In this document: positions 7,833-64,000 of the stretch, one piece after another
Layout: each line of letters starts with the position of its first letter
Position numbering within the stretch: position 1 is the first letter of the stretch
Source of the DNA: Euglena gracilis
Lineage: Eukaryota
Length of the DNA: 64,000 bases
Direction of reading: 5' to 3'
Assembly: GCA_039621445.1 (NCBI GenBank)
Contig: CP154954.1
Coordinates: 9,054,634 to 9,118,633, forward strand
The notes under the pieces: generated by a model
Database searches by the model: none
The model's input: only the letters and a program-made list of their open reading frames with translations
Told to the model about the DNA's origin: nothing
Translations under genes and position numbers: made by a program

Positions 7833-7836
7833 GCCG

Positions 7837-9357: not shown

Positions 9358-9617
9358 GCCGCGGAGCGCGAGTTCCTTGGGGGGTGGAAGGGTTGGGGTT
9401 ACTGTAGTATTTTAGTATGAGGAGGAGGAGCCAGTTGATGGAGAGGAGGGAGAAGAGGAGGGAGAGCAGGCGGCCAGTTGTCAGTTGTATGAGAGAATCC
9501 GTGCGCAGGTCGGTGAGGACGTGGAAGAGGAGGCGGAGGAGATGGTACAAGCATCGTCGGGAAACGGGGTGGGGTAAGGGGAGTTTTGAGAGTCGACCAG
9601 CGAGGCCCCACAGTGTA

Positions 9618-10727: not shown

Positions 10728-10733
10728 AGCGAG

Positions 10734-12505: not shown

Positions 12506-12624
12506 GCCAGTGGGGGAGGGGGGGGCGACTGAAATGGGGGAGGGGGGTGCAGAAGGCCCTGGGAGGGGGGGGGGTGGGGTTAGCCTGGTTAGGGAGGAAA
12601 TGATTCCTCAATTGTTCATATAAT

Positions 12625-13347
12625 TCAGCTGTAATTTGGATAGTGGGGGTGGGGTTGGGAGGTGGTGGTCCAGGGGGGGGGAGGGACATCCCGGCCAACA
12701 TCCCCACCGCAGGGGCCCACTGGGCCACAGGGGTGGGGAGGGCCGGGGGGGGGAGGGGGAAAGAAGGTGTGGAATGGCAGTGTGTGTGGTAGGTTGGTGT
12801 TGATGTAAGTTTGGGTGGGAAGGGGTGGTGCCAATTGTCTTTGCAGGGCCCGCAGGGCCTCTGTAATTGGGACAATTGGCACCACAGGTGGGGGGGGGAG
12901 GGGGGGGGGAGGGGGCACAAAACGGGGATGGCGATTGTAATGGGGAATGTGCTGGGGATGGGGGCGGTGTTCGTTTACGTCTCCTTTGCTTCCTTGGTTT
13001 CCAAACTCCGGGTTCTTCTTGCCAGCGCCAGGGTTTTGCTCCACAGCTTGGTTGTCGTGCTTCTTGGCTTGCCTTTGGGCTTTTTGCTTGCACACCTTGG
13101 TCAAATGTGGCTTTTTCTGGGATTGCTTGATTCCGGGTAATCGAACTCGGAGGGGGGCTGGTGCCAGCGCTTGCTTCAGCCGCCTTGCTCGACGCTTCTG
13201 GCTCCTGGTTTGGCCATCCTTTTGCGTGGCTGCCTGCTCTTGTCGCTTTCTCTCCACAATCTCTTCGATGGTCAGACTGGCGACGCTCGAAATGTCGGAT
13301 ATTGTTGAGAGTTCCTCGCTGTCACTTGACTTTCCAGTTTCAGGCAT
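12625..13347 (-). CDS. ORF1 of the YR element: basic/coiled-coil then proline-rich, probably continuing into the MT ORF through frameshifts in C runs
   Basis: ATG at 13347 just inside repeat A1. The overlapping ORFs 12483-12920 and 11468-12505 are separated by homopolymer tracts. Confidence 0.55.
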   Translation of the reverse strand: MPETGKSSDSEELSTISDISSVASLTIEEIVERKRQEQAATQKDGQTRSQKRRARRLKQALAPAPLRVRLPGIKQSQKKPHLTKVCKQKAQRQAKKHDNQAVEQNPGAGKKNPEFGNQGSKGDVNEHRPHPQHIPHYNRHPRFVPPPPPLPPPPVVPIVPITEALRALQRQLAPPLPTQTYINTNLPHTLPFHTFFPPPPPGPPHPCGPVGPCGGDVGRDVPPPPWTTTSQPHPHYPNYS

Positions 13348-13354
13348 CGTATTC

Positions 13355-13451
13355 AGTGTTCTTCCTTCGTGAAAGGCACTAGAGGGATAGTGGAGGGTAT
13401 CTTTGATGCCTAATTGCCTGTCGCGGATCTGGCGATCAGAGATCGTAGGAT
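13355..13451 (-). repeat. Split direct repeat A1 (5' end of element)
   Basis: Identical to 7696-7792. Confidence 0.9.
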
Positions 13452-14015
13452 TCGGGGACCCCTCCCCCAAATCCTACTGAGATTCGCGCCGCAGGAGGCG
13501 GCATCCAAAACAAGTTCACTCAGCTCCTTTGTACATTACACCCACAGTATAATCTACCCGCGACCTGTGGCGGTACAGGGAGTCACAAGGGGGTTCCTCT
13601 TGTGGCGAGGGCCAAAAGAGACGTTTCCCTGGGCCCGGGGCACGGTTTGGGTGAAGCTGTGCTACCCACCGTGTGATCAGACATAAAGAAAAGTTCACCA
13701 CCCCATTTTGAGTCGTTGAATTCTGGGTCCAACCACGCCTCCCATCAGCCGTTATTCCATTTCCAGAATCGGTCAAATTTCACATGCACTGAAATTTGAT
13801 GTTTGATGACAGTTGTTTCAACACTTGGACCAGTCTGGTTTGCAACAGGGGGACCTTGGGGTTTTCTGGATTTCTTTGTTTCAAACCAAAGGGACCAGTG
13901 ATTCTGTTTTTCCCATTCTCAACACTTGCCCATTTTAGCACATATTTGCCCAATATTTAGCACAATTGTTGAAGTTGTCTATGTTAGTTCCAAATTCAAC
14001 TTCTTCGCCAGTGGG

Positions 14016-48900: not shown

Positions 48901-50892
48901 TTGGAAAACTGAAATAACTGTACTAAAGCGTCAGCCACTTGGTGTCGACTGTCGGGGGCGTCCGACAGTCAAAAATGGTAAGGCGGAAGCTTTTGAAAAC
49001 ACGGAATTTTTCATTCTGCGCAGAACGCGCATTCAATAGGAAAAGCTCAATTTGGGGTTCAAATTTAACACAATTTGCTTCCGCAGACCTTTGTGCTTTT
49101 TTTTTGACATTGGCATCAATCAACAATCGAATTGGAGAATCGAAATCAAGAGAAGGTACATTGTTTGCAAGAATAGTCAATTTCAGGTCCCTCTTCCCAC
49201 TTTCACGGTGTGTGCGTGTTTCTGTTGCCTTTTAACACCATCCATTGCAACAAAACACCCACCCTGACCATTTCCAGTGTTTTTGCATAATTAAGAAAGG
49301 GTGGGTGAAATGGCTACGTGGGGACTGAAATTTGGGACTACATTTTTGAAGGAACGGAATTTTGACTTTGTGCAATTTTTCAGGAGAAAAGCAAATTCGA
49401 TCCTACGCACACCCCTCTGGTCGGGGGGTACACCAGTGGGCGAAACGGGGGGTGGCCTGAGCCCTCCACCACCGGAAAAAACACTGGCCCCGGGCCAGGG
49501 AACGGCAACCCCAAGGGTGGGTGTCGGGGACGAGGCAGCCGGCCGGGGGGCTGGGGGCTGGGGTCCGACACTCGCAGGGGGGGCGCCGGGTGTGAACATG
49601 GTTAGCAGAGGTGGCTTCACTGACCCTGTCAGTGAAGAGTTTTCAGAACCCCTGAACATGGTACGCAGAGGTTTCTTCACTGACTCTGTCAGTGAAGAAT
49701 TTTTGGATTCAAATGATGACAAACATGGTTGGCGGAGGTGGATTCACTGACTTCGGCAGTGAAAAGTTTTCGAACTCCTTGAACATGACAAGCAGAGAAT
49801 GTTTTGCCAGCCCTGTCGACAAAACTTTTTTCAGCCCAGAAAACACGGACGAATTTGCTGGCACAGCCAGCAGAAATATTGCTGAAAAGTTTGACATGGT
49901 CACAGAGTTTTCAGAGTCCAAAAAGTTTGCTGAGTCTGTGAACGTGGAATCACAGAATTTCTCAGGTCAGCCACCAGATTTTTCGGAGAGCAGCCCCCGA
50001 AATCAAAATGTCAGAACTGCAGAATCTGTGGAATCTGAGGGGTTGTTTCAATCAGTGGGTCGAAGTCAGCTGGGCGAATGGAATCATTCAGGTTTTTCTG
50101 CAGGGTCTGCCAATCAATTTTCAATCTCAAATCAATCAATTCTCAGCTCCCTGCCATTTACAATCACAGGTTTTACACAATCACAGGTTGCTTCAGGTGA
50201 TAATTTAGAGTTTTTTGTCTGAAAAATCAGGGGATAGCCCTGTAAACTGTTTCCCCGTAAGGATGATAACTGCACAGGGGGAAAATTCACAGCCAGAAGG
50301 GGAAAACCAGCTAGTTCAGTGGGCACAATCCCCCCCGTCGTATCAAAGTGACTGTGAAACGGAGGGGAGGGTGCGCAAAACCCAGATAGGTTTGGAGAAA
50401 TGGATGATTTTTTGATTGCTGCAGGTTGGGTACCACCCAGAAATAAGGTTTTGGAGCAAAATCTGCCAGATTTTTCTGCGAGTTTCAGTTTTATGGTGCA
50501 AACCCCCCAGCTGGAGGAAAGCATAATTCCCCCCCAGGTTGTGATTGAGAATCGGCTGGAAATTTTTGAGAAAAATTTGGCTGAAAAAAATGCTCGAGCA
50601 CAGAGAGGACTTTTGCATTTCATCCACGAAAATTTGGAGAAACATACTGCTGAAATGTGCAGCCAGTTTGAGCACGAAAAGCAAAAAAGTCAGGAGCAAA
50701 TTCAGCAATCAGTCAGCCAATTTATTTTACGATGCCAGGAAGGGGGGAGTGCTGTGGAAAACATTGCAAACTGCCACAAACAACTTTTGGGGATTGAAGT
50801 TCAAAGGCAGATCGAAGGGAAATTTCATGATTTTGAGAAAAAATTACGGGATTTTCTGGGTGGTGAGCTGGCACAACTTGAGAGCCATAGAA

Positions 50893-51400
50893 ACGATGTC
50901 CAAAACAAATTGTTTGCACCAGGTGGGTTGGTCGAGCAAGTTGGAATTTGTTTACATTCTGTCGAGGGAATAAAGTCAGATTTTCAGAAAGAAGTTTTGG
51001 CAATCCGACAAACAAATCGTGAGCTATGCTCTGGGGTGGACAGAAAATTTGCTGAAATCGCTGCTGGGCTGAAAATGGTGGGGGAGGAATCAAAATCAAG
51101 TTTTGGAACCTTAACCCAGGAAATTCAGCAGCGATTGGAAGCAACTAGAAACGAGAGCAAAGCTCTGGGGGGCAGGACCACAGCAATTGAGAAATTTCTG
51201 GGCAGCCAGCAGGTGGGTTGGGATAAGGTGGTTTAAATGCTGGGAAAATATGAAGCAACAATTCAACTGGAAGTTCGTAGGGAAACGGCAGCCCAGGTCA
51301 GAAAAAAATGGAAATTATGATGGTGAAAATGATGGATGAAAACCTGAGGCAAACCCAAAAGGAAGAACATTTTGAAAAATTGCAAACTGACATTGAAAAT
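50893..51400 (+). repeat. 508-bp direct duplication, left copy
   Basis: Matches 58447-58954 with one substitution noticed. Confidence 0.92.
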
Positions 51401-51876
51401 TGGACGTCTCAGAATATTCTTTTGTTTTTATTTAAATCCTCGGATTCCCAATTTTTCTTGATATCCCAATTGTCCCCAAAGACGTAACACAATCAATGCA
51501 ATGACATAACCAGAGCCAGCAGTCTGCACAGGAGGAAAGGTTCGAATTAGGAATACAAAGTTCGGTTCGGGCGGTTAGTAAATAGTCCGCACACGCCCCC
51601 CATGCCGGAGGACGCGGCGCCACAGGCACAGGACGAAACGGCATCACACCACAAACAAAACGGCTTTACTGTGTTCAAGCACTGATACATGGTGTTCAAC
51701 ACGAATTGTCCACAAAAAAGGTTCAGAACGACAAATGTCAACACAAAGGAAGGTAAAAGAGGTTACTTCCGACGTTCACCGTGGTCCCTTCACTTCGTGG
51801 TTGGCTTGCCATTCAAAAGTAACACAAACCTGGGCGAAACTCCTCGCATCAATGGCAGGTTTGTGACTGAAAGCCT

Positions 51877-52944
51877 TCAAAGGTTAGACAACAATCCACC
51901 CATGGCGAGGCGGGTTGGTGTCTCCTGACCCGAAAAACCATCCAAAAGGCCCCCTGGGGGGCTTGACTTTCCTCCCGCGTGACTGAAAGCACGATCAAAA
52001 CATTTGGGGGGAGGCCAGGCTGTCTCTTGCGATGCCAACCCCCATTCGCATTCTGAAACGTCGCAAAACATTCTGAGCGCCTGGCGTAGGATCGATTGTA
52101 AATTGTGATCCACACAATAATTCTTGAAAACCTCATTCATTCTGCCTCCTGGTTGCACAAAGGAAGCCACAGGCTCCCATGTACTGCTGCTTGCCGGAAA
52201 AGTCTCCCACCAAACCAAAAATTTCCATCCCCCTTGGTACTTGTGCTTCAAAATCTTGTAAACATTGTAAAAACCCAATTGTGCTTGTTCTTCTTCTGAC
52301 ATCTGAAGGGGGGGATCCCCTCCCTGGTCTGGCATGGGGGTGTCACCCTCCACTGGGTCTCCCACAACCACTTCACCGGTCAAAAGGTCTGGGTCTTCTT
52401 CCAAAAGGCTTTCTTCATGCAAAGCAACCTCCCACCTTTTGCACAAACCCAAAGAGACATCAATGACCCCTCCCAAAGATGGACTGCTTGCAATTTGCAC
52501 TGAATTGAACCTCGATTTGAGAACCCGAAAAGGTCCTTGCCAGGGGGGGGAAAGCTTGGGCCATGATTTGTTTGGCCATCTTTTGTTGTGCACCAAAACA
52601 TAGTCATCTTCTTCAATTTTTGCTGGTACCCTCCCTTTGTTGGCACTCTCAAAATCCTTTTTCCTCAATTCTTTCAATCTCTGGGAAGCTCTTTCTTGAA
52701 TTTCCATCTGGGTCAAAAGCCAAGAATGGGTTTCTGGATTTGTCACCGGTTCTGGGGGTAATTCCAACCTCCAAGCTGGTCTGCCCAAAAACATTTCATG
52801 GGGTGACAACATTGTTGTGGGGGAAATCTGCGAATTCATCAAAAATGTGCAATACGGGATCAGCTGCACCCAATTTTTGTCCTTGGAAGACAGACTCAAT
52901 GCTCGCATATTCTGCAAGAACATTTTATTGACATTTTCAACCAA
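51877..52944 (-). CDS. Integrase C-terminal half with GPF motif and chromodomain
   Basis: VENVNK supplies the DDE glutamate. SPHEMFLGR and KLSPPWQGPFRV motifs. Chromodomain FYNVYKILKHK..KFLVWWETFPASSSTWEP. Confidence 0.9.
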   Translation of the reverse strand: MVENVNKMFLQNMRALSLSSKDKNWVQLIPYCTFLMNSQISPTTMLSPHEMFLGRPAWRLELPPEPVTNPETHSWLLTQMEIQERASQRLKELRKKDFESANKGRVPAKIEEDDYVLVHNKRWPNKSWPKLSPPWQGPFRVLKSRFNSVQIASSPSLGGVIDVSLGLCKRWEVALHEESLLEEDPDLLTGEVVVGDPVEGDTPMPDQGGDPPLQMSEEEQAQLGFYNVYKILKHKYQGGWKFLVWWETFPASSSTWEPVASFVQPGGRMNEVFKNYCVDHNLQSILRQALRMFCDVSECEWGLASQETAWPPPKCFDRAFSHAGGKSSPPGGLLDGFSGQETPTRLAMGGLLSNL

Positions 52945-53966
52945 ACCGTTTGATCGGGGGTTCCGGGCAGAGAAAACGATAATTTCACGTCAAGAGCTTT
53001 CAGGGCTGTCTGGTAAAAACCACTGGGCTGTCTGAATCGCACGTCGTTGTCAGACCTCACAACAGACGGTTTTCCAAAAACAGAAATCCACCGGTCCAAA
53101 ATAAGCCTCAAAACACCTTCTCCGGTTACCGTTTTCTGTGTGGGGATGAATTGGCAAAAATGGGACAAATTGTCGACCAAAGTCAGAACCAAAAAGTCAT
53201 AGTCAAAACCATTGTAGGGGTCCATTTGCACAAAATCCGAACACAAAACTTCATTGCTCAGTGTTGGAATCGGTAAAGAACCCACCTTTCCACGGTCACT
53301 GGGGCGGTTTTGTTTTGAAAGGGTGCAAGTTTCACATGTCATCACAATGGCACTGCAAATTTCCAACATGTCTTTCTTGGAAACCTTGGACTGAAAATGG
53401 CTCAAAAAGAACAACAAAGTCCTTTCAGCACCAACATGGTTGCTTGCCTTGTGACATTCATCCAAACAAACTTTCAACAAATGAGATGGAACAACCAACT
53501 TTCCTTCACAATACATGGCCTTGGCAGATCTGAACCAAAACTCATTGTCAATGAAACAGGGTTTTGAAACCTCCACTTTTTTCCAAAAATCCTTCAGCTC
53601 TGAATTCAAATAACCTTTTTCTGACACTTGCACTCTGTGGGACAAACTGAAAATCTTCTGCAAAAACAGGTCAAGCTGCACATCCATTTTCTGAAAAGCG
53701 TTCCTTGCTTCTTCCTCAAAATGAATTTCAAATTTGTTCCCAAAATCAGCACGAGACAAAAAATCACACAATTCATTTTTGCAACATGCCACATGAACGA
53801 TATTCAGTTTGAACTGGTGCAAAAACACATACATCCTTCTCAGTCTTTTGTTGAGGGGGGGTTCACCCTTCAGAAAAGAGGTGGCTGCCTCATTGTCTGT
53901 CATCCACACAATTGGCAGATTTTGCAAAATCCTTGTTTGTGAAGCAATGGTCAGCACACCACTCAA
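52896..53966 (-). CDS. RNase H C-terminus plus integrase Zn-finger and core
   Basis: WMTDNEA and NELCDFLSR (RNase H); CHKASNHVG..CETC (HHCC); SDFVQM and RSDND (DDE aspartates). Confidence 0.88.
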   Translation of the reverse strand: MSGVLTIASQTRILQNLPIVWMTDNEAATSFLKGEPPLNKRLRRMYVFLHQFKLNIVHVACCKNELCDFLSRADFGNKFEIHFEEEARNAFQKMDVQLDLFLQKIFSLSHRVQVSEKGYLNSELKDFWKKVEVSKPCFIDNEFWFRSAKAMYCEGKLVVPSHLLKVCLDECHKASNHVGAERTLLFFLSHFQSKVSKKDMLEICSAIVMTCETCTLSKQNRPSDRGKVGSLPIPTLSNEVLCSDFVQMDPYNGFDYDFLVLTLVDNLSHFCQFIPTQKTVTGEGVLRLILDRWISVFGKPSVVRSDNDVRFRQPSGFYQTALKALDVKLSFSLPGTPDQTVWLKMSIKCSCRICEH

Positions 53967-55207
53967 AATTTCCTTTTGTATTTTTTTCTTGCCTCACTCC
54001 ATTTCCAGTTGTAGTGGCCCAAGGGCACCAACCTCATTTTACTGGGGTAGTTGTTTTTCAGGGTTCCATCCACCTTCACACCACTTGTTCGAAAATTCTC
54101 AGGAATTTGTGTTTGTTGGAGGGTTTGCCACTGAAACAATGCTGAACCACCTCCCAAATCCGAACTGTCAGTCACCAAAACAATCTCTCCTGAACTCCTG
54201 GGGGTACCCAAAACATCAAGAGAAGACCACTTCCTTTTCAATGCATTCAAACAACTCTCCTCCTTTTCAGTCCACCTCCATTTCACATTCTTTTTCAGAA
54301 GATCTGTGAGCGGGGCTGAGTCAAAAGTAAAACCTTTCACGTGTCTGCGGTAGAAATTCATGGCTCCCAAAATTCGCCTCAAATCCCTTTGATTCTGAAC
54401 TCGAAAACTCAGAATTGGTTCAATGTTTCTTTTGTTTGCCTGCCACATTCCCCATCCCAACGAGAAACCCAAATAGTCAATGGACTGATTCAGAAAGGAA
54501 CATTTGCTCAATTTGATTCTCACTTGGTTCTTTCTGCAAACTTCAAACCACTTTTCCAAAAGATACAAATGATCCTCCTCAGAGTTTGCACCAACCCCTG
54601 TGTCATCGAAAAAAGAAGCCAGGTGTCCATCCTTCAAAATCTCTCTCACCCTCAAATCCGTTTTGCATTGGGAGGTTAGAATTTCCATCAGCTCCTGAAA
54701 AATACCCGGTGCATTACTTAGGCCAAACATCATCCTTTTGGGACGAAAACACCTCCCAGATGGAATGCAAAATGCAGACAAATTTGCTGCTCTTTTTGTG
54801 ATTGGGATTTGCCAATACCCACTCCTCGTGTCCAGGGTACTTTTCCACCGACATTTGGCCAAACTTTTAATCAAAACCTCCATGCTTGGCAAATAACCTG
54901 CATGTGCCTTGCTTCTGGCATTCAATTTTCCATAATGGATGACCATCCTTCTGGTACTTGACCCTTTTTTGTCCACCAAAAATGTGGGGCTGCACACCTG
55001 GGGGATTTCACCAACTGGGAATTGCTCAATCAACCCTGACTTTAGCAATTCTTCACACTGAAGGTCAATTTCTTTTTCATCCTCCTGGGGCATGGGCCAA
55101 CACTTTTGCCTTAGGGGTTTACCTTGCCATTCAGGCTTCAGCTCAATGTCCATCAAAACAGGCAGGGGGGGAAGGCTCAGAAATTGTGGGCAATGGTCCA
55201 AAAACAT
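53963..55207 (-). CDS. Reverse transcriptase plus RNase H N-terminus
   Basis: SPTFLVDKK, RMVIHYGKLN, LDTRSGYWQI, MFGLSNAPGIFQ, FFDD, YLGF and LVTDSSDLGGG. Confidence 0.92.
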   Translation of the reverse strand: MFLDHCPQFLSLPPLPVLMDIELKPEWQGKPLRQKCWPMPQEDEKEIDLQCEELLKSGLIEQFPVGEIPQVCSPTFLVDKKGSSTRRMVIHYGKLNARSKAHAGYLPSMEVLIKSLAKCRWKSTLDTRSGYWQIPITKRAANLSAFCIPSGRCFRPKRMMFGLSNAPGIFQELMEILTSQCKTDLRVREILKDGHLASFFDDTGVGANSEEDHLYLLEKWFEVCRKNQVRIKLSKCSFLNQSIDYLGFSLGWGMWQANKRNIEPILSFRVQNQRDLRRILGAMNFYRRHVKGFTFDSAPLTDLLKKNVKWRWTEKEESCLNALKRKWSSLDVLGTPRSSGEIVLVTDSSDLGGGSALFQWQTLQQTQIPENFRTSGVKVDGTLKNNYPSKMRLVPLGHYNWKWSEARKKYKRKF

Positions 55208-57801
55208 CAGAAAATTTCACCAAAAGCTCATACAACCTGGGGTGGTCTCTTAATTTCTCAACTTCTTTTTCAAATTCTCCACTCAGATTCTCAGTAAACA
55301 ATTTGCTGCTTTTTTCATCAGCCTTTTTCTGGGCCTCCAAAGTCCAAATCTTTTCATGCAAAACTTGGGAAATGCTTTTGAGTTCATCCATCTTGATTGT
55401 TGCCTTGGGAGTTTTCACAGGTTTTGCAAACTGCACATCTTCCACAGGCTGGGCCAGCTGGAAAAACATCACCTCCACATCTTTTCTCACCTCTTGAAAA
55501 AGACTCAGCTCACTTTCAATGTCTTTTGTCAATTCAGCCAAAAAATTGATGTTTTCATGCTCATTCATTGATTCAAACACCACCACATTGTCCAACCATT
55601 CTTTCATCTTTTCATCTGATTCCTTGGGGGGAACATTCTCCAAAGGAAAACTTGGACTTTCAAAAACTTGCTTGTCTGCAGGTGGACTGGCAGGCTGGGG
55701 TGCCTGCTGCTGGGGGGGAACATCAGGAAGAACTGGGAAATCCACTTGAATTCCATCATCCACTGTGGGATACTTCCTGATCTCACCTCTCAGTTCATCC
55801 AAACTCCAATTCCTTGAAACTTTTCTGAGCCAACTGACAATTTTGGGGTCCAAAAGCTCAAAATCCACTTTGAATTGCACAGTGTCCACCACACTCACAA
55901 AAGTGTTCCACAGGGGGGAGGGCAGCACCTTTTTGCACCTGTCACCCACAAACAAGGGAACCCCACTTGAAATTTTCACCCTGGCCACAGTCACCCTTTC
56001 CAGCAGGGGGGACCAGTACTGGTCCACCCAGTCTGGGTGTACCAGGACCATTTTTGTTTCTTCAATGCACAACTTTGTCACCACTTTGCTTAGTTGGCTG
56101 AAGGGGGGGTTTGCCCACAGAAACTTGGAAGCACCAATGTCACACAACAACCTTTCCCATGAATACCTGTAGGCTGAATTCCCTTTTGTCATGTACAAAG
56201 ACTGGGTGTGGTTCAGGTGGTTTGCAAAAAGATCAATGCAAATCTGACCCTCAGAAATCTTCAATTCATCCAAAGCTTTTGTCTTCACTGGCTTCACCAA
56301 AGTGTAGCTTTCTGTCTTGAAAAGTCTGAAAATTCTTTTGATGGTGTGGTCCCCATCATGGCTCTGAAGTAAAAACTCCTCACCATCAATGATGATTCTG
56401 GGGGGTCTGGTCAGCAACCCACCAAAAAATTCACTTTCAGTAAAGTCAGTCCCCAAAACTGCCTCGAAGGCATTTGTTTCAACAACAACCGCTTTAAGCT
56501 TTAGAATTTTTCGTCCCAACTCCAAACTCACCTCACACACTCCTTCAGAAAAAATGTACTCCCCGTTGCCGATCTGCAGGGGTACCGCAGCACTCCGCTG
56601 AATTTTATTCTCTGGAACACATTTCTTAGAAACTGCAGTAATGGTGGCCCCTGTGTCCAAAATGGCTTGAATTTCCTTTCCATAAACCCTCACTGGCAAA
56701 AGATAAGTTTTACACACCATCTGGAGCAACTGCAAAGCATCAGCCTTTCTCTTTTTGGGGTTCTCACCCTGGGGGGTAACCTGGGTTTGCACTCCCTGGG
56801 GTTGAACCGAAGGGGTCCCTTTGCCTGCCCCCTTCTGGGCTGCTGCCTTCTTTTTCTCAAACTTTTCTTTTGACCAACATCTGTCTTCATAATGCCCTTT
56901 TTTGTGACAAAATCGACAGAAAATTGTGGCTCCAAATCGTGGGGCTTTTCTTTCACCCTTGCCTTTGCCTTTTCCTTTGCCTTTTCCTTTTTCACCAGAT
57001 TTTCCACCTTTTCCAGATTCTGGGACATTTTCACCAACTTTTTCAGATTGATCAGGGGGTCTTTCAATCAATGGTCTGAGATTTTCTTTTTTCAGCAAAT
57101 TCCTCTCCAACCAATCTTCAGAACTTTTCTCCAAAATTGTTTTTCTCAAATCTGTGAATGTCTCAGAACGATGTTTGTAAAATCTGTCTGCCCTGATGTC
57201 TGCATACATTCTGGGGTGTAATTTCCTCAGCAAAACCAAAAACTTTTCCTGTTCACTCATGGCCTGGGGGCTCAACCTGGCCATCAAATTGTCCAACTCA
57301 ATGAAAAGTTTTTTGATGTCTTGGGGTTCAGGGTTCTGGGAAAGTGTTGGCAATTTGTCAATGGCAGACCTCAAAGTCATGTCATTTTCCAATGTTGGGA
57401 ACAAATTTGCAATTCCCAACAGCACTTTTTCAAAATCATCATTCTCATCCATCACTTTTTCAACCAGTTTTTTTCACCTTGGGGGTGCAACATTCCAACA
57501 GCCAATCCTTTTTCTGGACATTTCCAAATGCAACTGCGCCAGTTAACCTCAACCATCTGCCAAAATCTTTCAAAAACTCTGGCCAATTTGTGCCATCAAA
57601 CTCTGGCAATTTCACAGGGGGTAATCTTGAACTTTGGGTTGAACTTTGGCTGGGGTTGCTGGAATTTGGTTCCACAATTTGCTTCAGAAATGTTTCAACC
57701 TGGGTGATGGGGTTCACAGGGGTAAACACAGATTGACTGCTGCTGGCTGATTTCATTTCCAATTCTTGCAACCTTCTTTCCAAATCTTCAATGGAGGACA
57801 T
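55143..57801 (-). CDS. Gag (CCHC), aspartic protease and Dam-like N6-MTase (frame change near 57460)
   Basis: PVKLPEFDG; CRFCHKKGHYEDRC; AILDTGAT. MT domain at about 55880-56315 with IDLFAN..N, LWANPPF and LVHPDW..W, in the same frame as the protease. Confidence 0.9.
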
Positions 57802-58446
57802 TTCTGCAGATCACTTTCAAAAAAACTCAACCACTGGCTCTGAAAACTGGGAGAAACAGAAACACTGGCCAACCCAAAAAGACAAACAAAAACTGAAGAA
57901 ACCAGAACAGAAAACCAACCACTGGGTTCAGGACCAGGTCAGCAAGATGATGAAGATCTTGCCACAACCAGGATCTTGTTCTGGACAGCAAGGTGAACAG
58001 CACCACTTACAAACTTCCTCAACCAAATAACCAATACAACAACTGTTGACAAATTCTCCACTGTGAACTTGTTCACCACAGCCTCAATGTCAACTTCCTG
58101 TTGAAGGTGTTGTTCTGTACCAGCAACTTGGTTAACCTTGCCTTCAGGAACACCAACTTCTGGAACTTCAATAACCAGTGAAACAACGTTGAATCTCCTC
58201 GAAGACGTCTTGGACGATTGGAACAACAAACCTCTGCGACCAACTTTGGACGTCTCAGAATATTCTTTTGTTTTTATTGAAATCCTCGGATTCCCAATTT
58301 TTCTTGATATCCCAATTGTCCCCAAAGACGTAACACAATCAATGCAATGACATAACCAGAGCCAGCAGTCTGCACAGGAGGAAAGGTTCGAATTAGGAAT
58401 ACAAAGTTCGGTTCGGGCGGTTAGTAAATAGTCCGTTAGTAATAGT

Positions 58447-58954
58447 ACGATGTCCAAAACAAATTGTTTGCACCAGGTGGGTTGGTCGAGCAAGTTGGAA
58501 TTTGTTTACATTCTGTCGAGGGAATAAAGTCAGATTTTCAGAAAGAAGTTTTGGCAATCCGACAAACAAATCGTGAGCTATGCTCTGGGGTGGACAGAAA
58601 ATTTGCTGAAATCGCTGCTGGGCTGAAAATGGTGGGGGAGGAATCAAAATCAAGTTTTGGAACCTTAACCCAGGAAATTCAGCAGCGATTGGAAGCAACT
58701 AGAAACGAGAGCAAAGCTCTGGGGAGCAGGACCACAGCAATTGAGAAATTTCTGGGCAGCCAGCAGGTGGGTTGGGATAAGGTGGTTTAAATGCTGGGAA
58801 AATATGAAGCAACAATTCAACTGGAAGTTCGTAGGGAAACGGCAGCCCAGGTCAGAAAAAAATGGAAATTATGATGGTGAAAATGATGGATGAAAACCTG
58901 AGGCAAACCCAAAAGGAAGAACATTTTGAAAAATTGCAAACTGACATTGAAAAT
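58447..58954 (+). repeat. 508-bp direct duplication, right copy
   Basis: Matches 50893-51400 and continues into the outer element's gag. Confidence 0.92.
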
Positions 58955-60983
58955 CAAGTGAGACAGCAATTTTTCACAGTTTTGATGAACATGCAGACAG
59001 ATTTTCAGCCTGAAAAGAGTCAACGGGAGGGTTTGCAAGAACTGTGTCAAGCTTTGCAGACTCGTTTGGCTTTCATGGAGGGGAGGGTTCAGGAAATTTC
59101 AGTCAAAAAATCACAGCAAATTCACCCCAAGGCACCTGAAGTGGCCCAGCCCAAGACAGTAAATCAGCCGAATTCTGGGATTTTTGGCATTAAGGGGGTG
59201 TCACCGGCTCAATCATCTGGGATTTTCGGGGTTAAGGGGGTGACCCCAATGATGCCATGTGAAATCTGGGATGTTGATCTGGGCGGGTGCAGACCATCAA
59301 GTAGTTCACAGGGGGTGCAGTTGCAATAAATCAGGTCAGTGGCAATTGTGCCATTGTGGGGGCACCCCAGCGACCCCCAGTCATAAGTGTTGGTAACCCA
59401 GCGGTGCAGCATGTGTTGAGAAATTTGACCGCACAAAATGTTCAGGGAAATATCAAGATTGGCAGCAATTTTTTGAGGATTGGCAAGCATTTTCACGGAA
59501 ACTGAATTCTGCAGGGGGGGGAAGTGAGTGAAGGTTTGAAAGTTGCTCTGTTGGAGGATTCTCTTGACCAAACGAGCAAAAAAATTTCTGAAGCTCCATC
59601 TCAAGGAAGGGGGGATCAATTTTAATGCCGGGTGGGGTCACCTGCAAATGACATTTTCGAAGAATCAGGAATCTGGGGCAAGGAAAAATTGGCAACAGGT
59701 GAATCTTTTTAATCAAGGCAAAGTTACCCTTGAGCACTGGCTTGAATTTCAGGCAAATTTCAAGATGGCCAAGTGCAAGGTTAAGGATGCCGGGGAGGGG
59801 GAAGCAAAACGACTTTTGTTGCGGAAACTTCCCATTCGTCCTAAAATGGGTTTCAGATGAGGAGGAAAGGAGGCTGAATAATCAGCCAACTTTACGCCTA
59901 AAGATGCCAGGGAATAGGAATTCAGAAACGGTGGCAGAAAGCCTGGGGAAAATGGTTGGGAAAAGACCCACAAAAGTGTCGGAAATTCACAAATACGAAA
60001 TCATTTTCCCTGACATTTCTGCTTATGAAAAAGTCAAGAGTTTTCATGGCAAAGAGTTTGACGATTCAAAAGTTTTGTTTCAGGTTCAGGAAATTGAACC
60101 AATTTTGACCACCGAGGATATTTTCAACCTCGTGAAAACGAAGTTGACACTCGGAAACAAGCATGACGCCTTACTAAGTTCTGTTTCATCCCCAGGATAT
60201 CAAGGGTTTAGGCGTTCAAGGTCGGTGGGTGCTGAAAATCGAGGGGGGAGGCAATCAGGGAGTCGGAAGAGTTCACCATGGTAAACCTCTGGTAGGGCAA
60301 CCACACCTCCCCCAGCCAGAAGCAAATCACAAATCAGCGAAACAGCAAAACCTGATCAATCTGTTGCGGTTTCATCTTCAAATGTGCAGCCATCAAGCAA
60401 TTCTTCAAGGCTTTCAACGGTGGAGAACCCACCCAACGTGCAAAGACCGGTGGTGGGGGTGATGTTGCTAGACAAGCCCCGTGGAACAGAAACAATTTTC
60501 AGCCGTATGGTAAGGGCAGCCAATGGAAAGGGAGGAATAATTCCCAGGGACATGGGGCAAATAACTCCCAATGGTATGGGGGTAACCAACAGGGGTACAA
60601 GGGGAAGGGTGGTAAGGGAAGAGGGAAGGGCAAAGGTTTTGACTAGAATTTCGGTGCCAAAGGGGGGAAGGGCAATAACAATAACCCAACACCAACGGTT
60701 GCCCGCCCTATTCGTCATTAGGGACGCCGTGGTCATTTTTTTGAGGGGTTTACATCCTCGGGCATCGAAAACCCCCAACGTATTTTGCATAACCCAACCA
60801 AATCTTCACATGGAGGATATTACCGTGGTGGAGATTCCAATTTCTTCACCTCAGGTTCAAAATCAGGCAATGAAGAGTGTGCAATATCGAAGACGAGCAA
60901 CGGTGCCAATTCAATGATTTCAATAAGTTCATCCTCGACAGCCAACTCGAGAAGACAAGTGGCCTTGAGCTTTGAGGCCTTGA

Positions 60984-62036
60984 GTGGCCAAATGGCAGCC
61001 TGTGTCGAGGAAGGGCAAACCGTGTACCAGGTGTGCAAGCCAGGAGAGTGCACGGCCCAGGTTCAACAATTATTATGGTTGTTTGAGCGAAAGACGATCC
61101 ATCAAAGGTGTGGGAAGTTGGAAAGTTCCCAAGGCGTTGGATTTGTTTTCGGGAAAAGGGTTTGTTGGGAGGTGTTTGGAGGAAAACGGGTACCAGGTGG
61201 TATCCTTGGATGTGAACCCAAAATTTCACCCAACCCACGTCACGGATATTCTGGAGTGGAATTATCGAAAATACCCCCGTGGATATTTTCAAGTCATAAC
61301 GGCAAGTGTGCCTTGCACGGAGTATAGCCGTGCTAAGACGGTGCGAGAAAGAAATTTGGAATGGGCAGACCAAGTGGTGACAAAAACTTTGGAAATTGTG
61401 GAGTATTTTCAGCCCAAATTATGGTGGATTGAAAATCCTCGAACGGGACTTTTGCCAAAAAGGCATTGTGTGCAAAATTTGAATTTCATTGACGTGGATT
61501 ATTGTCAATTTTCCGACTGGGGATATCAGAAACCCACTCGTATTTGGGGGAGTCAAAATTTGTTGCGTTTGAAGGACAACCTTTGTGATGGGAAAACCTG
61601 CCCCCATTTGATTGTGAGTGAGGGGGGTGGGTTGGTTCTCAAAGAACAATTGGGAGGAAATGGAATGAGGGTGAGCACTCAAATAAAATGGAGAGTACCT
61701 GAGAAGTTGGTCGAGTACCTTCTTTCGACCCTTGATTTTAAGGAGGAGAAATTTTCTTTCAAACGTGAGGACTATGCCGTTCAAAATTCATTTGTGCAAA
61801 TGATTGAGGAGAATTTTCAAAGGAGGGCCGAGGTGGATTGTTTTGCTTCTACACAAAACTCTCAGTGCACGTCATATTTGACCGACAAGGAAAATGCTTT
61901 GGCGGTACCATGGGGAGGGGGAGGCACGGTTTGGTTGAACCCTCCCTGGTCATTGTGGCCAAAGGTGGCAAAGAAATTGCAAAAGACCCTTGTGATGACA
62001 TTTGAATTTTACCCGATTGGAACAGAGGTTGGGTGA
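60984..62036 (+). CDS. C5-cytosine DNA methyltransferase (about 61131-61733) followed in frame by a Dam-like N6-adenine MTase (about 61768-62150; tail frameshifted)
   Basis: C5 motifs: I LDLFSGKG, II VVSLD, III TDI, IV ASVPC, VI WIENP, VIII YCQF..YQKPTRIW, X WRVPEKLVEYLL. Then VDCFAS..N and WLNPPW, with ILPDW..W in the next frame. Confidence 0.9.
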   Translation: MAKWQPVSRKGKPCTRCASQESARPRFNNYYGCLSERRSIKGVGSWKVPKALDLFSGKGFVGRCLEENGYQVVSLDVNPKFHPTHVTDILEWNYRKYPRGYFQVITASVPCTEYSRAKTVRERNLEWADQVVTKTLEIVEYFQPKLWWIENPRTGLLPKRHCVQNLNFIDVDYCQFSDWGYQKPTRIWGSQNLLRLKDNLCDGKTCPHLIVSEGGGLVLKEQLGGNGMRVSTQIKWRVPEKLVEYLLSTLDFKEEKFSFKREDYAVQNSFVQMIEENFQRRAEVDCFASTQNSQCTSYLTDKENALAVPWGGGGTVWLNPPWSLWPKVAKKLQKTLVMTFEFYPIGTEVG

Positions 62037-62042
62037 AAGAAC

Positions 62043-62783
62043 TTGTTCGGAAGGCAACAAAAAAGTTGTATTTTACACCTGGAAAAGCTTTTTGAGGTCG
62101 ATGGGAAACCAATGGGGGGTGTGATGTGTGGAGTTTGGGCCTTGTTGATAGAGGGTAATAAGCCCCCCGCCAACACTAGCAACCCGAAGAAACCAAAGGT
62201 GGTACATTTGAAATCACGGATGGTTAAAAAGAGATACCCAACCACAGGTATTGAGAAATTTTCCAAGGACCGACAACTTTTGATTCGGACAAGGGTTGTT
62301 TTGGGAAACGGGGAAGAACAAAACATGGACGTTTTGGTAGACACCGGTGCGGAGGTTAACCTCATAAGGCAAGGGTTGGTGAGTGAGCACCTAATGTATT
62401 CGGCCGAACACCCCTTGAGGTTTGAAACCGCTGACGGTCAAGCCTTGAGTGGTGGGTGGAGGTGCACTAAGGTGATCATGAAATTGCAAGGGGAGGTGAA
62501 CGATAATACCCCACCCACAGATTTTGGGTACGATGTGGAATTTTATGAAGCCAATATCAAAGTGGACGCAATTTTGTCATACCCATGGCTTGTGCAAACA
62601 AAAATTGGAATTTTTCCACATCATCGTGCTTTGGTAGTGGAGGAACCCAAGTTGACTTTTTTTTTCGGTGTGAGAGATCAAAGGAGAAAACGACAAGGAA
62701 AAGTCCCTAACACACTACCCCAAAGGGGGGGGGGTGACAAATTTGGAAAAGTTTGGTTTCCAACTTCCTATGGAGGGTTTTGA
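62043..62783 (+). CDS. Retropepsin-like aspartic protease (preceded by the MTase tail)
   Basis: MDVLVDTGAEVNLI, FETADG and DAILSYPWL. Confidence 0.85.
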   Translation: MFGRQQKSCILHLEKLFEVDGKPMGGVMCGVWALLIEGNKPPANTSNPKKPKVVHLKSRMVKKRYPTTGIEKFSKDRQLLIRTRVVLGNGEEQNMDVLVDTGAEVNLIRQGLVSEHLMYSAEHPLRFETADGQALSGGWRCTKVIMKLQGEVNDNTPPTDFGYDVEFYEANIKVDAILSYPWLVQTKIGIFPHHRALVVEEPKLTFFFGVRDQRRKRQGKVPNTLPQRGGGDKFGKVWFPTSYGGF

Positions 62784-62823
62784 TCAAAGGGGCCAAGCCT
62801 TGGACGAACACTCGCTCTAAATT

Positions 62824-64000
62824 TTGGGAAACAATTTGGAGATTGCAAAGGAAAACCCCCTACCAATTCACAAAATGATTATTGCAAGGGAGGGGGAGGG
62901 GAATAATGAAACGGAATCCAAAGAGGAAGAGAGAATAAGTGAGCTAAGAGAGGATATTTTTGGAAGGTATGGTGGAAGCGTATTTCGGTCTAAGGTACAA
63001 CCCGACCCACCCGTAAGAGGACCATATGGTTATGTATTCATACCTTTGCAAGAAGGAGCGCGGTCCACCCGACAAAAACCATTTTTCATGCACGGGGAAC
63101 GAAAAGAAGCTTTGGAAAACATCACTGAAGATTGGATCGATGTCAAATAATCGAGCAAGCCACAACAAAAAATTCAGAATGGCTCTCACAAACTTTCCCC
63201 GTGCCCAAAAAGTCAGCCGATTTTCCTTGGAGGGGGGTTTTTGACATGACGGGACCCAACAGCCAATCCCGTAGATGCAACTACCCTCTTCTGAAAATCG
63301 AAGACATCCTGGTGAAGCATGGCGCAAACCAAATGTTCTCCATTTTGGATTTAAAACAAGCCTTTCACCAACAGCCGCTTCACCCGGATAGTAGGCCTAT
63401 AACTTGCTCCTTCTCACCAAAGGGTCTTTACCAATGGAGGGTAAATGTAATGGGGTTAACCAATGCCTCACAACAATTTCAACAAATGATGGATGACCGT
63501 ATTAGCACCCGTAAGGGATATTGCTACCCCATACATTGATGACATTTTGGTATGGACCACCTTCGGGGAGGGGGAGGATCTCCTCGAGGCACACAAAAGG
63601 GATTTGTGTAGGGTGTTGGATTTACTCGCGAGGAAATGTTTGTAGTGGACTCAAAAAAAGCGGAATTATTCATCAAAGAAGTGGAATTTTGTGGCCAGAT
63701 TTTGGGGCATGGCATGCGTCGGCCGGCCCCCGGCAAATTACGTGCCATTGAAAAATGGGAGGTTCCAACCACCATAGCGGCCTTAAGGGCTTTCCTCGGC
63801 TTCACAAATTATTACGTGTAATCTCAAGTTGCGGCACCTTTGCAAGATAAGTTGAAGGTGTCTAGGGAGGAAGGCAAGAAAGGGAGCAAAAAATGGGTTG
63901 AATTCGGGGAGGTTGAACGCAAAGCATTTGAGGTGTTAAAGCAACGGTTGTGTTCCGGATTAATTCTTCAAAGGGTAGACCCCGATAAACCCTTTGCTTT
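62824..64000 (+). pseudogene. Ty3/Gypsy reverse transcriptase with several frameshifts and stops; truncated by the window end
   Basis: RQKPF, WLSQTFPVPKK, FSILDLKQAFHQ, MGLTNASQQFQ, YIDDILV, VEFCGQIL and LRAFLGFTNYY. Confidence 0.88.

What the first reader, a model, noticed from the sequence alone, without database searches (positions are those of the whole stretch)
60984..62783. Gypsy-like retrotransposon carrying tandem C5-cytosine and N6-adenine DNA methyltransferase domains in its polyprotein region
Seen: between the gag fragments and the DTG protease, one reading frame holds a compact C5-MTase with all core motifs (FxGxG, catalytic PC, ENP, YCQF..KPTRIW, motif X). A DIRS/Dam-type N6-MTase (DCFAS..NPPW) follows immediately, then protease and RT. 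Established: Dam-like MT domains are a feature of DIRS-group YR elements, and C5-MTases have been reported in dinoflagellate and charophyte retrotransposons. I know of no LTR element with both chemistries, nor a report from euglenids. Inference: the element may mark its own cDNA with 5mC and 6mA for self/non-self discrimination, nuclease protection or chromatin state after insertion. This copy is decayed downstream, but the C5 domain is uninterrupted.
Basis: partly seen in the sequence, partly recalled or inferred. Interest (0 to 1): 0.93.

Follow-up and report, generated by a model that had tools for sequence, protein, structure and literature searches.

The report
Retrotransposon carrying two DNA methyltransferases
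This is a decayed copy of a Euglena-type LTR retrotransposon whose polyprotein begins with a small cytosine-C5 methyltransferase followed by an adenine-N6 methyltransferase, a striking design that a 2026 preprint has already described under the name EpiLTR.

Summary
The frame at 60984-62036 (+) passes Pfam's own cut-offs for both DNA_methylase (C5) and Dam (N6). A DTG protease and a reverse transcriptase follow. An AlphaFold2 model of the C5 part (pLDDT 94.1) matches the DNMT3, DNMT1 and M.HaeIII catalytic domains.

Metagenome relatives 59-64% identical carry DNMT-Dam-PR-RT-RNaseH-integrase-chromodomain in one open frame of about 1800-1900 aa. The methyltransferases are therefore part of pol, not a nested insertion. 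The catalytic Cys is kept in 102 of 102 retroelement-borne relatives.

The window copy is dead:
- The Dam part has two frameshifts and a stop.
- The protease-RT part has more breaks.
- The "uninterrupted" C5 domain has Leu where 101 of 102 relatives have His.

The novelty claim fails. bioRxiv 10.64898/2026.05.21.726589 (May 2026) describes Euglena gracilis and Cymbomonas LTR elements with DAM, DNMT and a chromodomain ("EpiLTRs"). A Euglena transcript is 96% identical to the window's Dam part.

What may go beyond the main text I read:
- A much larger environmental radiation with at least three domain orders.
- A sister group of stand-alone genes of about 210-220 aa on virus-like contigs.

Function is still untested.

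The parts
59703..60917 (+). Decayed upstream coding region of the element (ORF1 or gag-like, with a G/K-rich tail). Its identity as gag is not shown.
   Evidence: Several frames are broken. No Pfam family was found and there is no intact CCHC knuckle. There are two homologues, P0317 (83%) and P0318 (61%), both unannotated. Contigs laid on this part are as numerous as on the rest of the stretch.
61116..61790 (+). Compact C5 cytosine methyltransferase domain (about 200 aa). Motifs I, IV (PC), VI (ENP), VIII-like and X-like are present. A Cys/Cys/Cys/His cluster stands where a large TRD would be. There is no stop, but residue 175 is Leu instead of the family's His.
   Evidence: Pfam PF00145 scores 26.9 bits against a cut-off of 22. 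The AF2 model has pLDDT 94.1 and pTM 0.88. Foldseek finds DNMT3B/3A, DNMT1 and M.HaeIII with prob 1.00. Conservation is shown, and the L175 change.
61791..62100 (+). Dam-type N6-adenine methyltransferase domain (DCFAS ... NPPW). Its C-terminal part is broken: the reading leaves frame 3 near 61985, meets an in-frame TGA at 62003-62005, and returns to frame 3 near 62085.
   Evidence: Pfam PF05869 scores 43.5 bits against a cut-off of 28.1. The three-frame reading is compared with P0047 and P0009. Nearly all laid contigs read another letter at 61998 and 62005.
62037..62783 (+). End of the Dam domain, a linker, and the aspartyl protease (DTGAE at 62340-62354).
   Evidence: Pfam hits are weak (18.9 and 16.9 bits, below cut-off). 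The region aligns with P0009, P0123 and P0125 across the protease.
62746..63998 (+). Linker and reverse transcriptase, with frameshifts (frame 1 at 62746-63264, frame 3 at 63144-63998) and stops, including at the place of the RT active-site motif. The element runs off the window end.
   Evidence: tblastn of P0123, P0125 and P0122 gives 66-68% identity in RT. RVT_1 scores 36.5 bits. Single-base differences near 63500-63502 appear in laid contigs.
50358..51400 (+). Probable left continuation of the same element (a coiled-coil-like frame), separated from the rest by the nested element. 50893-51400 is repeated at 58447-58954.
   Evidence: Self-comparison shows 99.8% identity over 508 bp. The junctions were read. 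The frames are listed.
51400..58435 (-). Nested neighbour: a DAM-LTR chromovirus-like element (gag-PR-Dam-RT-RH-INT-chromo) with no C5-MTase. It has 190-bp LTRs at 51400-51589 and 58246-58435.
   Evidence: ORFs are. Pfam finds PR at 41.1 bits, Dam at 20.1 bits (below cut-off) and Chromo at 21.9 bits (below cut-off). The LTRs are 99.5% alike, and PBS-like and PPT-like stretches adjoin them.

Best explanation
The stretch is a dead copy of a high-copy, chromovirus-like Ty3/gypsy LTR retrotransposon of Euglena gracilis or a close relative. It belongs to the type recently named EpiLTR. Its pol frame opens with a compact C5 cytosine methyltransferase. A DIRS-derived Dam-type adenine methyltransferase follows directly, then protease, RT and, in intact relatives, RNase H, integrase and a chromodomain.

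Shown:
- both domains pass family thresholds;
- the C5 fold is that of a DNMT;
- relatives hold all domains in one frame;
- catalytic residues are conserved across relatives;
- this copy is broken.

Inferred (about 0.4): both enzymes are made as part of Gag-Pol, travel with the particle, and mark the new cDNA or the fresh insertion. 5mC would let the copy match a host genome in which CG methylation is the default state. 6mA would seed the host's promoter-type mark. The chromodomain would steer integration. This is the model of the two de Mendoza-group papers, and no activity has been shown for this family.
For: Domain calls:
- Pfam scores both MTase domains above their cut-offs.
- The AF2 model of the C5 domain has pLDDT 94.1 and pTM 0.88. 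Its best PDB matches are DNMT3B/3A, DNMT1 and M.HaeIII, with prob 1.00 and E from 3e-9.
- A profile of alignment A1 finds DNMT1 chains across motifs IV-VI (E 1.3e-5).

Architecture in relatives:
- P0123 (1911 aa) reads DNMT 166-274, Dam 381-445, RVT_1 855-1021, RNaseH 1119-1239, integrase 1468-1642 and Chromo 1843-1879. P0125 and P0122 have the same order.
- These proteins align to the window from 61101-61134 to 63998 at 53-68% identity.
- Of the 316 proteins held, 56 carry both DNMT and Dam, and 81 carry DNMT with at least one of PR, RT, RH, INT or CHR.

Conservation:
- Among 102 retroelement-borne DNMT domains: Cys67 in 102, Ser71 in 102, Glu106 in 101, Pro108 in 102, Gly136 in 102.
- Among 57 Dam domains: Asp32 in 53, Phe34 in 54, Asn66 in 53, Pro67 in 55, Pro68 in 53.

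Copies and host:
- In three DNA(?) runs of one coded organism, 2993, 3342 and 1642 contig pieces lie on 59500-64000. All 30 bins are covered, the MTase part included.
- P0047, which the source EukProt names EG_transcript_20987, is 96% identical over the Dam part and has an open Dam-to-protease frame.

Prior description: sections 7, 8, 10 and 11 of bioRxiv 10.64898/2026.05.21.726589. The abstract of PMC5890265 states that other retrotransposon DNMTs methylate CG de novo.
Against: - RNase H, integrase, chromodomain and both LTRs of this copy are not visible, because the window ends in RT. Its class rests on relatives.
- No gag domain was recognised upstream.
- No activity data exist for this DNMT. 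The preprint's E. coli assay of representative eukaryotic DAMs was negative.
- The model of the Dam part (pLDDT 78.5) found no PDB match at E <= 0.001. Its best matches are RNA adenine-N6 methyltransferases (PCIF1/CAPAM, KsgA/Dim1), not DNA Dam.
- The C5 domain has only about 50 residues where other enzymes have a target-recognition domain.
- CpG depletion of the element (o/e 0.57) equals the window average (0.57), so it shows no special methylation history.
- The host name rests on one source label, whose meaning I recall rather than looked up.
Confidence: 0.85

Rival explanations
1. The two domains are conserved but do not write marks on double-stranded host DNA. The Dam-like part, and perhaps both, would act on RNA or on the RNA:DNA hybrid inside the particle, or serve mainly as nucleic-acid binding modules.
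For: - The preprint reports no 6mA gain in E. coli. It notes that eukaryotic DAMs lack the CD-1 and TR-1 parts of bacterial Dam.
- The best fold matches of the Dam model are RNA adenine-N6 methyltransferases.
- The C5 domain has a very short recognition region.
Against: - The catalytic Cys, the ENP Glu and the NPP triplet are kept almost without exception. A binding-only role would not require this.
- The fold matches for Dam are weak (E >= 1.5e-3, TM about 0.35).
- The preprint reports more 6mA on DAM-LTR insertions than on other LTRs.
- Other retrotransposon DNMTs methylate CG de novo (abstract).
Confidence: 0.12
2. The methyltransferase segment is not part of the retrotransposon. It would be a nested insertion, a chimeric assembly, or a host or viral gene trapped between gag and pol in this copy.
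For: - The preprint itself warns of nested insertions and assembly artefacts among Euglena DAM elements.
- The window shows one real nesting next door, at 51400-58435.
- The C5 domain occurs only once in the window.
Against: - Metagenome proteins hold DNMT-Dam-PR-RT-RH-INT-CHR in one uninterrupted frame. Three of the 316 held proteins have this exact order, and three more have both MTases plus INT and CHR in another order.
- Contig pieces cover the MTase part as fully as gag and RT in three runs.
- An open transcript joins Dam to the protease.
Confidence: 0.02
3. It is a tyrosine-recombinase (DIRS-group) element, as its Dam domain would suggest, and not an LTR or integrase element.
For: - Dam domains are typical of DIRS elements (preprint).
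- A DIRS-like Dam element with a Phage_integrase hit lies in the same window at about 7696-13454.
Against: - Relatives 59-64% identical carry rve integrase, Integrase_H2C2 and Chromo, and no tyrosine recombinase.
- The RT of the window copy is 66-68% identical to theirs.
Confidence: 0.01

Closest known systems
EpiLTRs of Euglena gracilis (bioRxiv 10.64898/2026.05.21.726589, section 8)
   Same: An LTR retrotransposon with both a DAM and a DNMT domain plus a chromodomain. The host has heavy CG methylation and promoter 6mA. The window's Dam part is 96% identical to a transcript that its source labels EG_transcript.
   Different: Nothing essential differs: this is most likely one decayed member. 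The main text I read gives no domain order for Euglena. Here the order is DNMT-Dam-PR-RT. The preprint's supplements, which may hold the order and the DNMT tree, were not available.
Cymbomonas tetramitiformis EpiLTRs (same preprint)
   Same: Chromovirus-like elements with DAM and DNMT. The preprint says their DNMT groups with the Euglena one, sister to DNMT4.
   Different: There the DNMT is appended to the 3' end of pol. Here it opens pol, ahead of Dam and the protease.
Retrotransposon DNMTs of Symbiodiniaceae (SymbioDIRS-DNMT3, SymbioLINE-DNMT) and streptophyte Gypsy-DNMT3 (PMC5890265; names as given in the 2026 preprint)
   Same: A C5-MTase lies inside a retrotransposon coding region. The idea is the same: self-methylation of reverse-transcribed DNA (abstract).
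   Different: According to the preprint these are a separate DNMT acquisition of DNMT3 type, and they have no adenine methyltransferase. I did not compare sequences.
Small stand-alone C5-MTases of phages and archaeal viruses, such as Bacillus phage Deep Blue Blue_145 and Haloferax tailed virus 1 gp60
   Same: They have the same compact size (CDS of 666 and 657 bases). They align over 88-89% of the domain at 26-29% identity, with E from 1e-8 to 4e-14. The nearest ESM-Atlas clusters are MTases of 210-219 aa with archaeal or viral labels.
   Different: They are free-standing genes in DNA virus genomes, with no RT, integrase or Dam fusion. Their identity is much lower than that of the metagenomic stand-alone group (35-50%).
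DAM-LTR and DAM-DIRS elements (same preprint), with examples in this window at 51400-58435 and about 7696-13454
   Same: They share the Dam-type domain with the D.FA and NPP[WFY] motifs inside a retroelement polyprotein.
   Different: They have no C5-MTase. In the neighbour the Dam domain follows the protease, and its RT is only about 23% identical. The third element has a tyrosine recombinase.

Membership tests
C5 cytosine DNA methyltransferase (PF00145 / DNMT fold) | Profile match above the curated threshold | tested here: met
   26.9 bits against a cut-off of 22, aa 81-182. P0123 scores 28.2 bits and P0125 26.7 bits.
C5 cytosine DNA methyltransferase (PF00145 / DNMT fold) | Motif I (FxGxG), motif IV Pro-Cys with the catalytic Cys, motif VI Glu (ENV/ENP) | tested here: met
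   The window has LDLFSGKG, VPCTEYS and ENPRTG. Among 102 retroelement-borne relatives, Cys67 is kept in 102, Pro66 in 101 and Glu106 in 101. The motif names are recalled from the literature.
C5 cytosine DNA methyltransferase (PF00145 / DNMT fold) | Three-dimensional fold of the catalytic domain | tested here: met
   The AF2 model has pLDDT 94.1. Foldseek finds DNMT3B 8eii_A (E 3.3e-9, TMq 0.59), DNMT1 4da4_B (rmsd 3.8) and M.HaeIII 3ubt_A.
C5 cytosine DNA methyltransferase (PF00145 / DNMT fold) | A target-recognition domain of usual size between motifs VIII and IX | tested here: not met
   Only about 50 residues lie between KPTRIW and RVPEKL. They contain the conserved C157 and C162 and position 175 (His in relatives), plus C130 in motif VIII. 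The whole domain is about 200 aa. The Pfam match covers only profile positions 42-136 of 324.
C5 cytosine DNA methyltransferase (PF00145 / DNMT fold) | Methyl transfer to cytosine C5 in DNA | not testable with these tools
Dam-type N6-adenine methyltransferase (PF05869; eukaryotic DAM of DIRS and DAM-LTR elements) | Profile match above threshold, with the D.FA and NPP[WFY] motifs | tested here: met
   43.5 bits against a cut-off of 28.1. DCFAS lies at 61836-61850 and NPPW at 61938-61949. The motifs are kept in 53-55 of 57 relatives.
Dam-type N6-adenine methyltransferase (PF05869; eukaryotic DAM of DIRS and DAM-LTR elements) | Intact domain in this copy | tested here: not met
   There are two frame changes (near 61985 and 62085) and a TGA at 62003-62005. 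Relatives and nearly all laid contigs read through.
Dam-type N6-adenine methyltransferase (PF05869; eukaryotic DAM of DIRS and DAM-LTR elements) | Fold like solved DNA adenine methyltransferases | tested here: inconclusive
   The model of P0047 has pLDDT 78.5, and above 90 for residues 41-160. No PDB match reaches E <= 0.001. The best matches are PCIF1/CAPAM and KsgA/Dim1, which act on RNA adenine N6.
Ty3/gypsy chromovirus-like LTR retrotransposon | RT of RVT_1 type preceded by an aspartyl protease | tested here: met
   RVT_1 scores 36.5 bits at 63129-63539. DTGAE lies at 62340-62354, with a sub-threshold protease profile (18.9 bits).
Ty3/gypsy chromovirus-like LTR retrotransposon | RNase H, DDE integrase (rve) and a C-terminal chromodomain | tested here: inconclusive
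   These lie beyond the window end for this copy. They are present in relatives P0123, P0125 and P0122, which are 59-61% identical to the 350-aa query and 66-68% in RT.
Ty3/gypsy chromovirus-like LTR retrotransposon | Long terminal repeats, primer binding site, polypurine tract, target-site duplication | not testable with these tools
   The 3' end is outside the window and no whole genome is held. No 5' LTR could be defined without a second copy. The metagenome loci with retroelement context are 2.4-5.8 kb and too short.
Ty3/gypsy chromovirus-like LTR retrotransposon | A gag gene upstream of pol | tested here: inconclusive
   Upstream frames give no Pfam family and no CCHC knuckle. The two homologues are unannotated.
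EpiLTR (bioRxiv 10.64898/2026.05.21.726589) | DAM, DNMT and a chromodomain in one LTR retrotransposon | tested here: met
   DNMT and Dam are seen in the window. The chromodomain is seen only in close relatives. The definition was read.
EpiLTR (bioRxiv 10.64898/2026.05.21.726589) | DNMT that groups as sister to DNMT4 | not tested
   No DNMT4 sequence was in hand. The profile of A1 finds DNMT1 best among solved structures. Supplementary Fig. 2D of the preprint could not be seen.
DIRS-group tyrosine-recombinase retroelement | A tyrosine recombinase in place of a DDE integrase | tested here: not met
   Relatives carry rve and Integrase_H2C2. A true Phage_integrase hit occurs only in the separate element at 9618-10733.

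The most novel reading that the evidence does not exclude
The EpiLTR cytosine methyltransferase belongs to a distinct family of 'mini' C5-MTases. These are about 200 aa long and have a conserved Cys-Cys-Cys-His cluster in place of a normal recognition domain. The family is shared with stand-alone genes of uncultured virus-like contigs and, more distantly, with phage and archaeal-virus methylases. One exchange between such genomes and LTR retroelements would suffice, with the direction open. The module was then shuffled into at least three positions in a large environmental radiation of retroelements, well beyond the two species named in the preprint.
Probability: 0.4. Interest if true: 0.5.

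Novelty: already known. Interest (0 to 1): 0.3.

Why it matters
A mobile element that carries writers for both DNA marks plus a chromatin reader could set its own epigenetic state. That bears on how 5mC and 6mA landscapes evolve in protists. A preprint made this point in May 2026, so this window adds one decayed example.

Three things remain worth a specialist's look:
- The DNMT module's compact build and its conserved Cys/His cluster.
- Its stand-alone virus-like relatives.
- The size of the environmental radiation: 2893 representatives at E <= 0.001. That search used the whole 350-aa DNMT+Dam frame, so the count may include Dam-only matches.

The central gap is still a direct activity test.

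Tried and rejected
- Whole-genome route: no genome is held for this window. Copy census, consensus, LTR/TSD and dN/dS could therefore not be done.
- Single-sequence search of PDB sequences found nothing at E <= 1. The profile search did.
- Sequencing runs: no RNA holder is listed. Run X15 is only guessed to be RNA, so its contigs over 61130-61985 say nothing about expression.
- Summed depths are not copy numbers and were not used as such.
- Only 40 of 406 'other letter' places were shown, and those are places where this copy stands alone. No codon-position test of selection was possible.
- The metagenome scan returned mostly stand-alone genes. Only 5 of 80 loci (L001-L004, L066) have retroelement domains beside the MTase, and none is long enough for LTRs.
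- The nature of the stand-alone contigs stays open. Of 21 distinct large neighbouring ORFs scanned (10 against Pfam; 20 against PHROGs, 9 of them the same ORFs), only five gave any family:
  - L038: phage-type primase.
  - L011: tail-fibre-like and Gly-rich.
  - L016: collagen repeats.
  - L006: a second DNA methyltransferase.
- Trees:
  - FastTree on 153 rows puts retro, solo and phage each on one side of a branch, with support of only 33 for retro and 81 for solo.
  - IQ-TREE quick on a random 57-row subsample supports the solo group (99*), but retro needs 2 changes. The direction of transfer is therefore unresolved.
  - Left out of both trees: about 205 proteins with a DNMT hit only, domains matched over fewer than 170 residues, and loci with stops.
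  - Left out of the subsample alone: P0249.
- CpG observed/expected gave no signal specific to the element.
- Earlier notes of this scan: three look-ups, nothing found.
- A bacterial promoter/terminator scan of 60900-61200 was irrelevant to a eukaryotic element and found nothing.
- Whether the Cys/His cluster binds zinc could not be checked, because model coordinates are not exposed.
Full report
WHAT IS THERE

The stop-to-stop frame 60984-62036 on the + strand (350 aa) scores above Pfam's own thresholds for two families:
- DNA_methylase PF00145: 26.9 bits, cut-off 22, residues 81-182.
- Dam PF05869: 43.5 bits, cut-off 28.1, residues 268-325.

The next frame (62037-62783) holds a DTGAE aspartyl-protease motif with only sub-threshold profile hits. 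An RVT_1 match follows at 63129-63539.

THE C5 DOMAIN IS A REAL, VERY COMPACT DNMT

I aligned the window's domain (61116-61790) with 50 relatives (A1). The AlphaFold2 model has mean pLDDT 94.1 and pTM 0.88. Its best matches among solved structures are the catalytic domains of DNMT3B/3A, DNMT1 and M.HaeIII, with probability 1.00 and E from 3.3e-9. A single-sequence search of PDB sequences found nothing. The A1 profile finds DNMT1 across motifs IV-VI (E 1.3e-5).

The domain is only about 200 residues. Between the motif VIII-like KPTRIW and the C-terminal RVPEKL helix lie about 50 residues, where other enzymes have a large recognition domain. Three cysteines and a histidine (positions 130, 157, 162 and 175, counted from 61116) are almost invariant there. 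A zinc site is my inference and was not tested.

THE METHYLTRANSFERASES ARE PART OF POL

The word-index search found 186 relatives of 192-613 aa and 79 of 614-2000 aa. The exhaustive search of cluster representatives found 2893 at E <= 0.001, 1441 at 1e-10 and 224 at 1e-30.

P0123 (1911 aa) reads, in one frame:
- DNMT 166-274
- Dam 381-445
- RVT_1 855-1021
- RNase H 1119-1239
- integrase zinc domain and rve 1468-1642
- Chromo 1843-1879

P0125 and P0122 have the same order. These proteins align to the window from 61101-61134 through 63998 at 53-68% identity, in three frame pieces.

I scanned the 316 proteins held with domain pieces of P0123:
- 315 have the DNMT.
- 56 have DNMT and Dam: 28 in the order DNMT-Dam, 26 Dam-DNMT, 2 with other domains between.
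- 81 have DNMT with at least one of PR, RT, RH, INT or CHR.
- 6 have both methyltransferases together with integrase and chromodomain.
- Of the 82 proteins of 614 aa or more, 68 carry a retroelement domain.

These are lower bounds, because one query per domain misses divergent Dam and protease domains. A nested insertion or an assembly chimera is therefore very unlikely.

CONSERVATION

In 102 retroelement-borne DNMT domains:
- catalytic Cys67: 102
- Ser71: 102
- Pro66: 101
- Glu106: 101
- Pro108: 102
- Gly136: 102
- Lys139: 101, Thr141: 101, Arg142: 99
- Cys130: 101, Cys157: 101, Cys162: 100, His175: 101

In 57 Dam domains:
- Asp32: 53
- Phe34: 54
- Asn66: 53, Pro67: 55, Pro68: 53
- aromatic residue at position 69: 52

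At pairwise identities of 40-65% this argues for purifying selection on catalysis. A proper dN/dS test needs genomic copies that I could not get.

THIS COPY IS DEAD

Compared with P0047 and P0009, the reading leaves frame 3 after KLQK (about 61985). It meets a TGA at 62003-62005 in the shifted frame and returns to frame 3 near 62085. The protease-RT linker and the RT hold further frame changes and stops, including where the RT active-site motif should be.

The C5 domain has no stop. Its residue 175, however, is Leu, the single exception among the 102 retroelement-borne domains.

I laid Logan contigs of four coded runs of one organism on 59500-64000. At 61639, 61998 and 62005, nearly all contigs read a letter that gives His, Ala and Cys, as in the relatives. 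These lesions are therefore private to this copy.

Across the stretch, 2993, 3342 and 1642 contig pieces of the three DNA(?) runs were laid. All 30 bins were covered, and pieces ranged from 99% to under 90% likeness. The family is repeated, and the methyltransferase part is as well represented as the rest. Depths there are not copy numbers.

HOST AND PRIOR DESCRIPTION

P0047, which its source EukProt names EG_transcript_20987, is 96% identical to the window's Dam part. It runs open from Dam into the protease. I read that label as Euglena gracilis from memory.

bioRxiv 10.64898/2026.05.21.726589 (Fernandez-Moreno et al., 22 May 2026) is the key prior description. I read the abstract, sections 7-11 and further passages. 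It reports the following:
- DAM-carrying LTR and DIRS elements occur across eukaryotes.
- In section 8, 'EpiLTRs' in E. gracilis and Cymbomonas tetramitiformis encode DAM, DNMT and a chromodomain. Their DNMTs form one group, sister to DNMT4.
- The E. gracilis genome is CG-methylated by default, with 6mA at a subset of promoters.
- DAM-LTR insertions carry more 6mA than other LTRs.
- Representative DAMs did not raise 6mA in E. coli.

The abstract of PMC5890265 reports earlier DNMT captures in dinoflagellates and charophytes, and de novo CG methylation by such enzymes. Searches for 'EpiLTR' and for Euglena, DNMT and retrotransposon terms found no other description.

HOW IT LIKELY WORKS

Shown:
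- the domain identities;
- the position of the domains at the start of pol;
- conservation of the catalytic residues.

Inferred, at about 0.4: both enzymes are translated as part of Gag-Pol, travel with the particle, and mark the cDNA or the new insertion. 5mC would match the host's default state, 6mA would seed the promoter-type mark, and the chromodomain would guide integration.

Points against this reading, or still open:
- There are no activity data.
- The DAM assay in E. coli was negative.
- The recognition region of the DNMT is very short.
- The Dam model (pLDDT 78.5) matches at best RNA adenine-N6 methyltransferases, with E >= 1.5e-3. That keeps an RNA or hybrid substrate possible.
- CpG observed/expected is 0.57 for the element and 0.57 for the whole window, which is uninformative.

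WHAT MAY GO BEYOND THE PREPRINT'S MAIN TEXT

1. Stand-alone relatives. A metagenome scan with A1 returned 80 loci. Only 5 have retroelement domains beside the MTase. In 53 of the others the match sits in a closed frame of 203-292 codons, on contigs mostly of low G+C. The few neighbours with any family include a phage-type primase and a tail-fibre-like protein.

2. Named phage relatives. 28 phage records hold a relative at under 60% identity. The 15 listed are 26-29% identical, and 27 of the 28 cover at least 80% of the domain. Examples are Bacillus phage Deep Blue Blue_145 and Haloferax tailed virus 1 gp60.

3. Atlas clusters. The nearest ESM-Atlas clusters are C5-MTases of 210-219 aa with archaeal or viral labels.

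4. Trees. In a FastTree of 153 rows, the retroelement-borne, stand-alone and phage groups each fall on one side of a branch, but with weak deep support. In an IQ-TREE quick tree of 57 rows, the stand-alone group is supported (99*) while the retroelement group needs two changes. One exchange is enough to explain the pattern, and its direction is open.

I could not compare with DNMT4 or see the preprint's supplementary DNMT tree. Whether this conflicts with 'sister to DNMT4' is unknown.

SURROUNDINGS

The element is interrupted on its left by a younger DAM-LTR chromovirus-like element on the minus strand (51400-58435). It has 190-bp LTRs that are 99.5% alike, and PBS-like and PPT-like stretches. 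It is flanked by a 508-bp direct duplicate of the interrupted sequence rather than by a short target-site duplication.

A third Dam-bearing element, DIRS-like with a tyrosine recombinase, lies at about 7696-13454.

The window thus holds all three Dam-element types that the preprint reports for Euglena.

Noticed in passing
window 50893-51589 and 58246-58954: The nested minus-strand LTR element (51400-58435) has no short target-site duplication. Instead, a 508-bp stretch of the interrupted sequence is repeated directly on both sides (50893-51400 = 58447-58954, 99.8%). Eleven extra bases lie at 58436-58446. The cause could be aberrant integration, recombination or an assembly artefact.
   Followed up: partly
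window about 7696-13454, minus strand: A GC-rich (0.58-0.62), strongly GC-skewed DIRS-like element. It has Dam (34.1 bits), Phage_integrase (33.7 bits) and RVT_1 (49 bits). On its own strand the order is Dam, then recombinase, then RT. It has 100-bp direct repeats at 7696-7795 and 13355-13454 (99%).
   Followed up: partly
P0169 (metagenome protein, 1965 aa): A relative with DNMT, Dam, RT, RNase H, integrase and chromodomain also carries a histone-mRNA stem-loop binding domain (SLBP_RNA_bind, 81 bits) between DNMT and Dam.
   Followed up: no
P0146 (719 aa): A DNMT+Dam relative is filed at NCBI as a hypothetical protein of the carnivorous plant Genlisea aurea (M569_12700). It may come from a protist living in the traps or from a transfer.
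   Followed up: no
window 59703-60284 and proteins P0317, P0318: The upstream frame of the element has only two database relatives and no known domain. These relatives end in a long Gly/Lys-rich tail, and nothing resembles a retroviral capsid or a zinc knuckle.
   Followed up: partly
loci L005-L080 (metagenome contigs): A large group of stand-alone C5-MTase genes of 203-292 codons sits on densely coded contigs, mostly of low G+C, whose large neighbouring ORFs mostly match no Pfam or PHROG family. In L006 a second, unrelated DNA methyltransferase lies about 2 kb away.
   Followed up: partly
window 51400-58435 compared with the whole window: CpG observed/expected is 0.31 in the nested DAM-LTR element. 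It is 0.57 in the DNMT-bearing element and 0.57 in the window as a whole.
   Followed up: no
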